This document shows, in pieces, positions 31,901-34,900 of a stretch of DNA of 64,000 bases; position 1 is the stretch's first letter, and every line of letters starts with the position of its first letter. Made by a program: the position numbers. The DNA lies in NCBI RefSeq assembly GCF_057098645.1, contig NZ_CM169472.1. One strand, given 5' to 3'.

Positions 31901-34900
31901 TGCTACTGGTGGCTGATAAAAACAAACCCAGCCTGCAACGTGTAGCTAAATACCATAAAAACTTCCCCCATGCGACGCTCGCCGCACTGGCAGAACTGCT
32001 GGCGTTAAAAGAACCACCAGCCCGCCCAGGTAATCCAATCATCGAAGACAAAAAGCTGCCTGCACAGCAAAAAGCACGCGATGAATACTGGCGTACGCTG
32101 TTACAAACGCTGATGGCATCGCAGCCACAACTGGCAGAAGAGGTGATGCAGTGGTTAAGTACTCAACCCCAGTCAGTGCTGAAGAGTTATTTATCGGCAC
32201 CGCCCAAACCGGTTATTGATGGCACCGATAACAGCAATCTGCCAGAAATCCTCGTTTCACCACCGTGGCGTAGTAAGAAAAAAATGACAGCTCCACGTCT
32301 TGATTTGGCACCGCTCGAATTAACTCCGCAAGTTTACTGGCAACCAGGCGAACAAGAGAGGCTTGCCGCCACTGAGCCTGCCCGTTATTTCAGCACGGAA
32401 TCTCTTGCGCAACGCATGGAACAAAAAAGTGGACGAGTTGTATTACAGGAACTGGGTTTTGGGGATGATGTATGGCTGTTTCTGAATTATATACTCCCCG
32501 GAAAACTGGATGCTGCACGCAATTCACTCATTGTTCAGTGGCATTACTACCAGGGGCGGGTTGAAGAGATCCTGAATGGCTGGAACTCCCCGGAAGCACA
32601 ATTAGCAGAACAGGCGCTCCGCAGCGGTCACATAGAAGCGTTAATTAACATATGGGAAAATGACAACTACTCACGTTATCGTCCGGAAAAGAGTGTCTGG
32701 AACCTGTATTTATTGGCACAGTTGCCGCGTGAGATGGCTTTGACCTTCTGGCTGCGTATCAATGAGAAAAAGCATCTGTTCGCGGGTGAGGACTATTTTC
32801 TCAGTATCCTCGGATTGGATGCGCTACCAGGTCTGCTGTTGGCTTTTTCACATCGTCCAAAAGAAACATTTCCGTTAATTTTAAATTTCGGCGCAACAGA
32901 ACTGGCCCTGCCCGTTGCCCGCGTCTGGCACCGTTTTGCGGGCCAGCGTAATCTGGCTCGCCAGTGGATTTTACAATGGCCGGAACATACGGCTACTGCA
33001 CTTATTCCACTCGTCTTTGTTAAACCCTGCGACAACAGCGAAGCGGCATTATTTGCCCTTCGTTTACTGTATGAACAAGGACATAGTGAATTACTGCAAA
33101 CGGTTGCAAACCGCTGGGATCGCGCTGATATGTGGCCAGCCCTGGAAAAAATACTTACCCAGAACCCGATGGAAATTTACCCGGCACGCATTCCAAAAGC
33201 CCCTGATTTCTGGCATCCGCAAATGTGGTCCAGGCCGCGCCTTATCACTAATAATCAAACTGTTACCAATGACGCTCTGGAAATTATCGGCGAAATGCTG
33301 CGCTTTACCCAGGGGGACGTTTTTATAGCGGGCTGGAACAACTGAAAACGTTCTGCCAGCCACAAACGCTGGCAGCTTTTGCTTGGCGTGGCAACAAGCT
33401 GGTGCCCCCGCAAAAGACAACTGGGCATTTCTGGCGTTAAGTCTCTTTGGTGACGAAAGCACGGCACGGGATCTGACGACACAGATCCTCGCCTGGCCAC
33501 AAGAAGGCAAATCTGCCCGTGCTGTCAGCGGCCTGAACATCCTTACCCTGATGAATAATGATATGGCGCTGATACAGCTGCATCATATATCGCAACGGGC
33601 TAAATCCCGCCCCTTACGTGATAACGCGGCGGAATTTCTTCAGGTGGTCGCAGAAAATCGCGGGCTAAGCCAGGAAGAGCTAGCGGACAGATTAGTCCCA
33701 ACCCTGGGCCTTGATGATCCGCAGGCGTTGAGTTTTGATTTTGGTCCCCGGCAGTTTACCGTTCGCTTCGATGAAAATCTCAACCCGGTTATCTTTGATC
33801 AGCAAAACGTTCGCCAGAAAAGCGTTCCCCGTTTGCGCGCCGATGACGATCAACTGAAAGCGCCCGAGGCACTGGCCCGACTAAAAGGGCTAAAAAAAGA
33901 TGCTACTCAGGTGAGCAAAAACCTGCTCCCGCGTCTTGAAACGGCCCTACGTACCACCCGACGCTGGTCGCTGGCAGATTTTCATTCTCTGTTTGTTAAT
34001 CATCCCTTTACCCGTCTGGTTACCCAGCGATTAATATGGGGGGTTTATCCGGCAAATGAACCGCGTTGTTTACTCAAAGCCTTTCGTGTGGCCGCAGAGG
34101 GGGAGTTCTGCAATGCGCAAGATGAGCCAATTGACCTGCCTGCGGACGCTCTGATTGGCATTGCCCACCCGTTAGAAATGACAGCAGAAATGCGCAGTGA
34201 ATTTGCACAGCTTTTTGCCGATTACGAAATTATGCCGCCTTTTCGCCAGTTGTCGCGCCGCACGGTGCTGCTCACACCTGACGAGTCAACCAGTAACAGC
34301 CTGACTCGCTGGGAAGGTAAATCCGCTACCGTTGGGCAACTTATGGGAATGCGATACAAAGGCTGGGAGTCAGGCTATGAGGACGCATTTGTCTATAACC
34401 TGGGTGAGTACCGGCTGGTCCTTAAGTTTTCACCCGGTTTTAACCACTACAATGTTGATAGCAAAGCGCTAATGAGCTTCCGTTCTCTTCGAGTGTACCG
34501 TGACAATAAATCCGTCACTTTTGCCGAACTTGATGTGTTTGATTTGAGTGAGGCGTTAAGCGCACCTGACGTCATTTTCCATTAAAACACAGCGGGCAGT
34601 GATGCAACTGCCCGTTATCAACACGACTTACCAGCGGGGAAAGCGATGATCGTGCAAAAAGAGCTGGTTGCTATTTACGATTATGAGGTCCCTGTACCTG
34701 AAGATCCGTTTTCCTTCAGACTTGAGATCCATAAATGCTCTGAATTATTTACAGGTTCCGTCTATCGACTGGAGCGATTCCGGCTACGTCCAACATTTCA
34801 TCAACGTGATCGAGAAGATGCTGACCCGCTAATAAATGATGCGTTGATTTATATAAGAGATGAGTGTATTGATGAGCGGAAATTACGAGGTGAATCACCT

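What the first reader, a model, noticed from the sequence alone, without database searches (positions are those of the whole stretch)
33313..33392. yehI carries two closely spaced frame disruptions; both DUF4132 paralogs are inactivated in this genome
Across 33320-33390 the paralog-collinear protein sequence moves from frame 1 to frame 0 to frame 2, with stops in each abandoned frame (TGA at 33343-33345, TAA near 33398). The first shift lies in a T5 homopolymer (33320-33324), consistent with loss of one T. The second, by comparison with molR (FAWDLFTAWQ), looks like a roughly 13-nt deletion. The open sequence from 30967 to 34585 is 3619 nt; adding 14 nt gives 3633 nt, matching my recollection of a 1210-aa YehI. 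Taken with the molR stop, both members of the pair appear disrupted.
Basis: partly seen in the sequence, partly recalled or inferred. Interest (0 to 1): 0.5.

Follow-up and report, generated by a model that had tools for sequence, protein, structure and literature searches.

The report
yehI pseudogene: two small deletions
In this E. coli lineage the gene yehI, whose function is unknown, is genuinely broken by a 1-base and a 13-base deletion 74 bases apart, and its paralog molR carries an old, common stop codon; this is ordinary gene decay, not a new kind of feature.

Summary
yehI (30967-34585, +) is 3619 nt here and 3633 nt in intact alleles. Restoring two lesions gives a sequence 100% identical to the intact yehI of strain 2452.

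- **Lesion 1:** loss of one G from a G6 run (now G5, 33312-33316). It is not a T lost from the T5 run at 33320-33324, which is T5 in K-12 as well.
- **Lesion 2:** an exact 13-nt deletion (GGATCTCTTCACT) at 33385|33386. It removes the conserved "DLFT" residues.
- **Effect:** translation stops at TGA 33343-33345 after 792 aa, upstream of the DUF4132 domain.

Assembly error is excluded. The deletion-specific 400-aa remnant is on record in 38 blocks of public assemblies. The four double-lesion contigs compared differ from the window by at most 7 sites in 20-22 kb; they include a read-run assembly and a metagenome scaffold. None of 5426 complete RefSeq E. coli genomes has the 13-nt deletion.

G5 alone recurs in unrelated strains at about the rate of a control G6 tract. 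The molR stop (TTA to TGA, 27985-27987) is the K-12 allele and is present in at least 705 complete genomes.

The result is an ordinary lineage-specific pseudogene. This clade has no intact DUF4132 gene, while yehLMPQ remains intact in the window.

The parts
30967..34585 (+). yehI pseudogene (3619 nt; intact alleles are 3633 nt and encode 1210 aa)
   Evidence: Adding one G and the 13 nt gives a sequence 100% identical to the intact yehI of strain 2452, WP_001556120.1.
33312..33316 (+). Lesion 1: a G5 run where intact alleles have G6 (a 1-nt deletion). The run overlaps a CCAGG (Dcm-type) site at 33309-33313.
   Evidence: Alignments; motif scan. G5 is found in 10 of 3420 complete genomes that match this stretch.
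33385..33386 (+). Lesion 2: junction of a 13-nt deletion (GGATCTCTTCACT missing). There is 1 nt (G) of microhomology. The lost piece contains the GATC site nearest the G run and encodes the conserved DLFT residues.
   Evidence: A 40-mer across the junction has no match in 5426 complete E. coli genomes but is present in L016 and L017.
33343..33345 (+). Premature TGA that ends the 792-aa N-terminal product
33438..33440 (+). TAA that closes the middle (second) frame after the 13-nt deletion
   Evidence: The 824-codon construct confirms the position.
33383..34585 (+). C-terminal remnant ORF (400 codons from a TTG). It holds the DUF4132 domain at about 33812-34366.
   Evidence: Pfam PF13569 matches with E = 4e-48 at residues 144-328.
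27163..30957 (+). molR (WGR + DUF4132 paralog) pseudogene with a single in-frame TGA at 27985-27987 (codon 275). A C-to-T SNP at 28063 is absent from all complete genomes and shared only with L016.
   Evidence: intact alleles have TTA, Leu; 705 genomes carry the same 61-mer; SNP.
34646..41774 (+). Downstream genes, all with open frames: yehK (34646-34963), yehL (AAA_5; 35270-36358), yehM (DUF5682; 36369-38648), yehP (vWA; 38641-39777) and yehQ (SWIM; 39774-41774).
   Evidence: There are no indels against O145 in this stretch.

Best explanation
yehI is a genuine, inherited, lineage-specific pseudogene.

**What happened.** Two small deletions hit an otherwise unchanged copy of a common yehI allele:
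- a 1-nt loss in a G6 homopolymer, the classic outcome of replication slippage;
- a 13-nt deletion 74 nt downstream, with only 1 nt of microhomology.

**Effect.** The first lesion alone stops translation at codon 793. The product therefore lacks residues 793-1210, including the DUF4132 domain (residues 954-1138 of the intact protein).

**Order.** The G-run loss most likely came first and the 13-nt deletion followed in an already dead gene. This is inferred, not shown.

**Paralog.** molR was already inactive through an older TTA to TGA nonsense mutation shared with K-12 and hundreds of other strains. This clade therefore has no intact DUF4132 protein, while the neighbouring yehLMPQ genes are still intact in the window.
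For: **Shown**
- Only two indels, and no substitution, separate this yehI from the intact allele of strain 2452. Only the 13-nt indel plus 17 SNPs separate about 46.7 kb of the window from O145 RM8988-C1, so the assembly is not indel-noisy.
- The truncated product lacks DUF4132.
- Exact-product look-ups, counted in blocks of the public assembly collection:
  - intact 1210-aa product: 5708 blocks;
  - 792-aa product specific to G5: 308 blocks, including a SPAdes contig and a metagenome scaffold;
  - 400-aa remnant specific to the 13-nt deletion: 38 blocks, 24 contigs read.
- Four contigs from separate public records (L014/L024 from GCA_032490095.1, L016, L017, L022) carry both lesions. They differ from the window by 2-7 sites in 20-22 kb.
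- The product expected from G6 plus the 13-nt deletion is not on record. This fits G5 arising first.
- The molR TGA is shared with K-12, strain 2452 and O145. Intact alleles have TTA.
Against: - The order of the two lesions is not proven. The G5-only contigs I examined (L020, L021, L023, L025) belong to a different lineage with a distinct yehQ-yehR segment.
- G5 is homoplasic: RM8988-C1 has G5, while RM8843-C1, which shows the same SNPs against the window, has G6. The nested counts therefore do not establish descent.
- Two indels 74 nt apart in about 46.7 kb that is otherwise free of indels is a tighter cluster than independent events would usually give. The chance is roughly 4% even if both are confined to yehI (my estimate).
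- No expression data exist, so residual function of either fragment is not excluded.
Confidence: 0.92

Rival explanations
1. Sequencing or assembly artefact. The G-run length is a homopolymer miscall, possibly aggravated by the overlapping CCAGG methylation motif, and the 13-nt gap is a local consensus error. The gene would then be intact in the real organism.
For: - ±1 changes in the G tract occur sporadically in complete long-read-era genomes. One example is a pair with identical SNP profiles: RM8988-C1 (G5) and RM8843-C1 (G6).
- The control G6 tract shows similar noise.
- Both lesions touch methylation motifs.
- No complete RefSeq genome has the 13-nt deletion.
Against: - Both lesions occur together in four other contigs compared by sequence: two NCBI draft genomes, a Logan assembly of read run SRR8751452 and an ENA metagenome scaffold. 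Each has a few SNPs of its own.
- The window shows no other indel against O145 in about 46.7 kb.
Confidence: 0.02
2. Both lesions arose in one complex mutational event, for example aberrant repair synthesis across about 90 nt, possibly mismatch-repair excision from the adjacent GATC after a slip in the G run. They would then not be two sequential hits.
For: - The lesions lie only 74 nt apart and are the only indels in about 46.7 kb.
- The deleted 13 nt contain the GATC nearest to the G run.
- No product of the 13-nt deletion alone is on record.
- No G5-only genome was seen that carries the clade's own markers (23145 A, 23518 A).
Against: - G5 arises on its own repeatedly in other backgrounds. 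A separate first hit is therefore the simpler reading.
- No substitution accompanies the two deletions.
- Only a handful of G5-only contigs were examined.
- The repair mechanism is speculation.
Confidence: 0.2
3. The disruption is functional rather than decay. Either the G tract is a phase-variable on/off switch, or the gene is expressed by programmed frameshifting, or it works as two separate proteins.
For: - G5, G6 and G7 lengths all exist at this tract.
- The C-terminal remnant keeps a complete DUF4132 domain in an open frame.
Against: - Length variants are rare: 10 G5 and 3 G7 among 3420 genomes. This is about as frequent as at a control G6 tract in the same gene, 3 of 3742.
- The 13-nt deletion cannot revert and does not restore the frame (-14 nt in total).
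- Two separate +1 ribosomal shifts would be needed.
- The remnant begins at a TTG with no recognisable ribosome-binding site.
- The deletion removes four residues of a block conserved between the paralogs.
Confidence: 0.03

Closest known systems
E. coli K-12 yehI (b2118; DUF4132 domain-containing protein YehI, 1210 aa)
   Same: - It is the same locus with the same synteny (metG-molR-yehI-yehK-yehLMPQ).
- The repaired window gene is 3633 nt with 62 substitutions against K-12.
- It is identical to the allele WP_001556120.1 found in strain 2452 and O145:H28.
   Different: - The window copy lacks one G (G6 to G5) and 13 nt.
- It encodes only the first 782 authentic residues plus 10 out-of-frame residues.
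- It lacks the DUF4132 domain.
yehI 'frameshifted' pseudogenes already annotated by NCBI's PGAP pipeline, for example in O145 RM8988-C1, 2013C-4974 and OSUCMP42NDM
   Same: They carry the identical G6 to G5 loss at the same tract. RM8988-C1 matches the window exactly over 8.5 kb apart from the 13 nt.
   Different: - None of them has the 13-nt deletion.
- 2013C-4974 and OSUCMP42NDM keep an intact molR, so they still have one DUF4132 protein.
- Their G5 arose independently of the window's.
K-12 molR pseudogene (the WGR + DUF4132 paralog next to metG)
   Same: The window carries the same TTA to TGA nonsense codon at position 275. The window differs from K-12 molR by 1 substitution and 1 indel.
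   Different: - K-12 has an additional 1-nt insertion (a frameshift) that the window lacks.
- Strains E15 and FDAARGOS_1276 have an intact molR.
- FDAARGOS_1276 has a third intact DUF4132 gene.
Disruption of the metG/DUF4132/yeh region by transposon TnMB1860 in E. coli ST131 sublineage L1a (PMC9334617)
   Same: It shows that loss of DUF4132 genes at this locus is tolerated and can become fixed in successful lineages.
   Different: There the cause is a large resistance transposon. Here it is two small deletions.

Membership tests
Pseudogene of yehI (frameshift class) | Orthologous position and near-identity to an intact gene | tested here: met
   Same synteny as the intact gene. Identity to the intact allele is 100% after repair.
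Pseudogene of yehI (frameshift class) | Frame-disrupting lesion that leads to a premature stop and loss of a defining domain | tested here: met
   Deletions of 1 nt and 13 nt. TGA at 33343-33345. The DUF4132 domain lies downstream and out of frame.
Pseudogene of yehI (frameshift class) | The lesion is real in the organism and not an assembly error | tested here: met
   The same two lesions are in the four other contigs compared by sequence, and 24 contigs encode the remnant specific to the 13-nt deletion. The reads themselves were not inspected.
Pseudogene of yehI (frameshift class) | No functional product is made | not testable with these tools
   This needs transcript and protein data.
DUF4132 family (Pfam PF13569) | Match to the PF13569 profile above the gathering score | tested here: met
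   - Remnant ORF 33383-34582: 164 bits against a cut-off of 27.
- Intact YehI: 162 bits.
- molR C-terminal part: 171 bits.
- The 792-aa product that can still be translated has no Pfam match.
Phase-variable contingency locus (simple-sequence repeat switch) | Tract length varies among close relatives far more often than at comparable tracts, and the change is reversible | tested here: not met
   G5 occurs in 10 and G7 in 3 of 3420 genomes. A control G6 tract shows 3 of 3742. The second lesion cannot revert.
Programmed ribosomal frameshift gene | The frameshift is conserved across orthologs and has a slippery site or stimulator | tested here: not met
   Orthologs in K-12, strain 2452, E15, FDAARGOS_1276 and Klebsiella have a single open frame.
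Known anti-phage defence system (PADLOC-DB 2.0) | Profile match of YehI, MolR or YehK-Q to a defence-system model | tested here: not met
   No hits for any of the 7 proteins at E <= 0.001.

The most novel reading that the evidence does not exclude
This clade is a natural knock-out of both DUF4132 paralogs. In the window it sits next to an intact YehLMPQ module (a MoxR-type AAA+ protein, DUF5682, vWA and SWIM).

If DUF4132 proteins are obligate partners of that module, the module should now be decaying. A subclade (L017, L024) already carries a frameshift in yehP.

Comparing rates of yehLMPQ decay across lineages with 0, 1, 2 or 3 intact DUF4132 genes could then reveal the functional coupling of this uncharacterised, H-NS-silenced gene cluster.
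Probability: 0.1. Interest if true: 0.35.

Novelty: already known. Interest (0 to 1): 0.1.

Why it matters
It matters little on its own. This is routine decay of a dispensable gene of unknown function. Standard annotation pipelines already flag this type of event: the G5 allele is annotated "frameshifted" in RefSeq genomes.

Modest practical value:
- The 13-nt deletion junction is a clean marker for one E. coli clade. It is absent from 5426 complete genomes and present in tens of draft or metagenome assemblies.
- E. coli strains carry from 0 to 3 intact DUF4132 paralogs, and this clade is the zero case. That makes it a ready-made natural mutant for anyone studying the uncharacterised Yeh cluster.

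Tried and rejected
rejected. T5 is unchanged in all intact alleles, and the missing base is a G.
- **Gene conversion or mis-assembly between yehI and molR:** rejected. The two genes are only about 40-60% identical at the DNA level.
- **Contingency locus or special hot spot at the G tract:** rejected by the control tract.
- **Repeat-mediated origin of the 13-nt deletion:** only 1 nt of microhomology. The local DNA folds show ordinary hairpins and nothing that explains the end points.
- **Inheritance of the window's G5 from the O145 strain that shares it:** rejected. RM8843-C1, which shows the same SNPs against the window as RM8988-C1, has G6.
- **Function of YehI:** nothing useful found. There were no PADLOC hits, only weak sub-threshold NCBIfam hits, no relative in the PDB by sequence and almost no literature. 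The only findings were H-NS silencing of yehL/yehM and transposon disruption of the region in ST131.
- **Donor of the divergent yehI patch:** not found among representatives of other Escherichia species.
- **Extra decay of yehLMPQ in G5 carriers:** not claimed. The look-up tool preferentially displays contigs whose neighbouring genes differ, so the sample is biased.

Full report
**1. What is in the sequence**

The window is E. coli chromosome. The gene order is gat-fbaB-yegTUVWX-thiMD-rcnRAB-yehABCDE-apbC-metG-molR-yehI-yehK-yehLMPQ-yehRS-btsRS, followed by a lambdoid prophage.

yehI starts at 30967. An ORF of 792 codons ends at TGA 33343-33345, and a second ORF of 400 codons (33383-34585) ends at the normal yehI stop.

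Translating the three forward frames over 33199-33503 shows the YehI-collinear sequence passing through three frames:
- the first frame carries ...EMLRFTQG;
- the second carries GRFYSGLEQLKTFCQPQTLAAFAW;
- the third carries AWQQAGAPAKDNWAF....

The abandoned frames are closed by TGA 33343-33345 and TAA 33438-33440. TAG 33326-33328 closes the third frame upstream.

**2. The two lesions, defined against intact alleles**

Alignment with K-12 (CV601gfp), O145 RM8988-C1 and strain 2452 shows exactly two indels.
- **First:** the run GGGGGG of intact alleles is GGGGG here (33312-33316).
- **Second:** 13 nt (GGATCTCTTCACT) are missing between 33385 and 33386, with one G of microhomology.

Adding back the G and the 13 nt gives 3633 nt with a single open frame. 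That sequence is identical at every base to the intact yehI of strain 2452, protein WP_001556120.1.

The deleted residues (DLFT) lie in one of the blocks best conserved between YehI and MolR. The DUF4132 domain (residues 954-1138 of the intact protein) lies downstream of both lesions, so the translatable 792-aa product has no Pfam domain.

**3. Real mutation or artefact**

Complete RefSeq genomes:
- None of 5426 contains a 40-mer spanning the deletion junction.
- None matches the 501-nt region at 99% or better.

The larger assembly collection gives a different picture:
- The 792-aa product that results from G5 is on record in 308 blocks, including a SPAdes contig and a metagenome scaffold.
- The 400-aa remnant that exists only with the 13-nt deletion is on record in 38 blocks, with 24 contigs read.
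- The intact product of the same allele is in 5708 blocks.

Four loci carry both lesions and differ from the window by only 2-7 sites over 20-22 kb, each with SNPs of its own:
- L014/L024 (GCA_032490095.1)
- L022 (GCA_015676305.1)
- L016 (Logan assembly of SRR8751452)
- L017 (ENA metagenome scaffold)

L016 also shares the window's SNP at 28063.

The window has no other indel against O145 RM8988-C1 in about 46.7 kb of shared chromosome; 17 SNPs are the only other differences. The assembly is therefore not indel-noisy.

Both lesions are real and inherited within a clade. The assembly-error alternative is refuted as far as sequence comparison allows.

**4. History of the lesions**

G5 on its own is homoplasic.
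- It occurs in 10 of 3420 complete genomes in unrelated backgrounds. Among them, 2013C-4974 and OSUCMP42NDM are more than 600 SNPs from the window over the 29-32 kb compared.
- RM8988-C1 (G5) and RM8843-C1 (G6) show the same SNPs against the window at every position covered by both.
- G7 occurs in 3 genomes.
- A control G6 tract elsewhere in yehI (34038-34043) is G5 in 3 of 3742 genomes.

The tract therefore behaves like any G6 homopolymer in a dispensable gene and is not a contingency switch.

The product expected from G6 plus the 13-nt deletion is not on record. Together with the 308-versus-38 nesting, this favours G5 first and the 13-nt deletion second, in a gene that was already dead.

This order is an inference. 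The G5-only contigs I compared (L020, L021, L023, L025) belong to another lineage with a different yehQ-yehR segment. The two lesions are also unusually close together (74 nt), so a single complex event remains possible. The G run overlaps a CCAGG site, and the deleted piece contains the GATC nearest to it. I record this as a coincidence and build no mechanism on it.

**5. The paralog**

molR (27163-30957) has one in-frame TGA at 27985-27987, codon 275.
- Intact alleles in strains E15 and FDAARGOS_1276 have TTA (Leu) there. K-12, strain 2452 and O145 share the TGA.
- The exact 61-mer around the TGA is present in 705 of 5426 complete genomes.
- K-12 has an additional frameshift that the window lacks.

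"Both paralogs are inactivated" is therefore true of this genome, but the molR half is an old and common allele. E. coli strains range from three intact DUF4132 genes to none:
- FDAARGOS_1276: three
- E15: two
- K-12: one
- this clade: none

Gene conversion between the paralogs is not involved. They are about 40-60% identical in DNA and 38% in protein.

**6. Context and consequence**

Downstream, yehK, yehL (AAA_5), yehM (DUF5682), yehP (vWA) and yehQ (SWIM) are open in the window.

The same gene order, with both DUF4132 genes intact, is kept in Klebsiella grimontii. A Serratia fonticola homologue stands alone.

Intact yehI alleles show dN/dS of 0.17-0.33, so the gene is normally under moderate constraint. 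The absence of any substitution in the window's dead copy shows that the inactivation is recent.

Some clade members have further lesions:
- a 1-nt deletion in yehP in L017 and L024;
- a substitution at 28295 in molR in L016, where the C-terminal gene call is shorter (837 aa instead of 952), suggesting an extra stop that I did not verify by translation.

I do not claim accelerated decay of the module, because the look-up tool preferentially displays variant neighbourhoods.

Little is known about function:
- No PADLOC model matches any Yeh protein.
- There is no PDB relative by sequence.
- yehL and yehM are H-NS-silenced (PMC3686432).
- The DUF4132 region is disrupted by a transposon in a successful ST131 sublineage (PMC9334617).

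All of this points to a dispensable locus.

**7. Verdict**

The feature is an ordinary, genuine, lineage-specific pseudogene of a known gene, of a type that standard annotation already flags. Interest is low.

The only forward-looking angle is that the clade is a natural null for DUF4132 proteins beside a still-intact yehLMPQ module.

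Noticed in passing
window 4546-5876: A 1331-nt IS3-family insertion sequence sits in gatZ relative to O145 RM8988-C1. It has an rve integrase ORF (4557-5462, minus strand), imperfect terminal inverted repeats and a 5-nt overlap of the flanks that indicates a target duplication. gatD (about 1188-2228, minus strand) also appears to carry the internal stop annotated in O145, so the galactitol operon is decayed.
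   Followed up: partly
window 32874-33276 (yehI nt 1908-2310): This is a mosaic patch. The window/2452 allele differs from the K-12, E15 and FDAARGOS_1276 alleles by 13-15% here (dS 0.41-0.46, dN/dS about 0.2). The rest of the gene differs from K-12 by dS 0.004. It looks like an import from a much more distant donor. No better match was found among E. marmotae, E. fergusonii or E. albertii representatives. The patch ends about 35 nt before the G-run lesion.
   Followed up: partly
window 28063: A C-to-T substitution (Pro to Ser) in the molR pseudogene is absent from all complete genomes: the best match over 301 nt is 99.7%. Among the related contigs compared, only L016 (SRR8751452) shares it.
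   Followed up: yes
L017 and L024 (position equivalent to window 39242); L016 (equivalent to window 28295): Members of the same double-lesion clade carry further changes. L017 and L024 have a 1-nt deletion that splits yehP into 230 + 152 aa. L016 has a substitution at 28295 in molR and a shorter C-terminal gene call (837 aa instead of 952), which suggests an extra stop that I did not verify. This may be continuing decay of the cluster, but the sample is small and biased.
   Followed up: partly
L005 (FDAARGOS_1276) 3513-14759: Some E. coli strains carry three tandem DUF4132 genes of 3798, 3795 and 3633 nt between metG and yehK, all intact. The number of intact paralogs is therefore polymorphic in the species, from 0 to 3.
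   Followed up: partly
window about 45600-64000: A lambdoid prophage or remnant is inserted next to btsS, where other strains have mlrA. It includes an nleA-like effector gene (48146-49387) and the tail-tip gene J (53473-56991). This suggests an attaching-and-effacing pathotype background close to O145:H28.
   Followed up: no
window 34038-34043: A second G6 tract in yehI was used as a control. It is G5 in 3 of 3742 complete genomes, including another strain of the O145 'C1' series (RM8995-C1). Sporadic homopolymer changes in yehI are therefore not confined to one tract, and some may be long-read consensus errors.
   Followed up: yes
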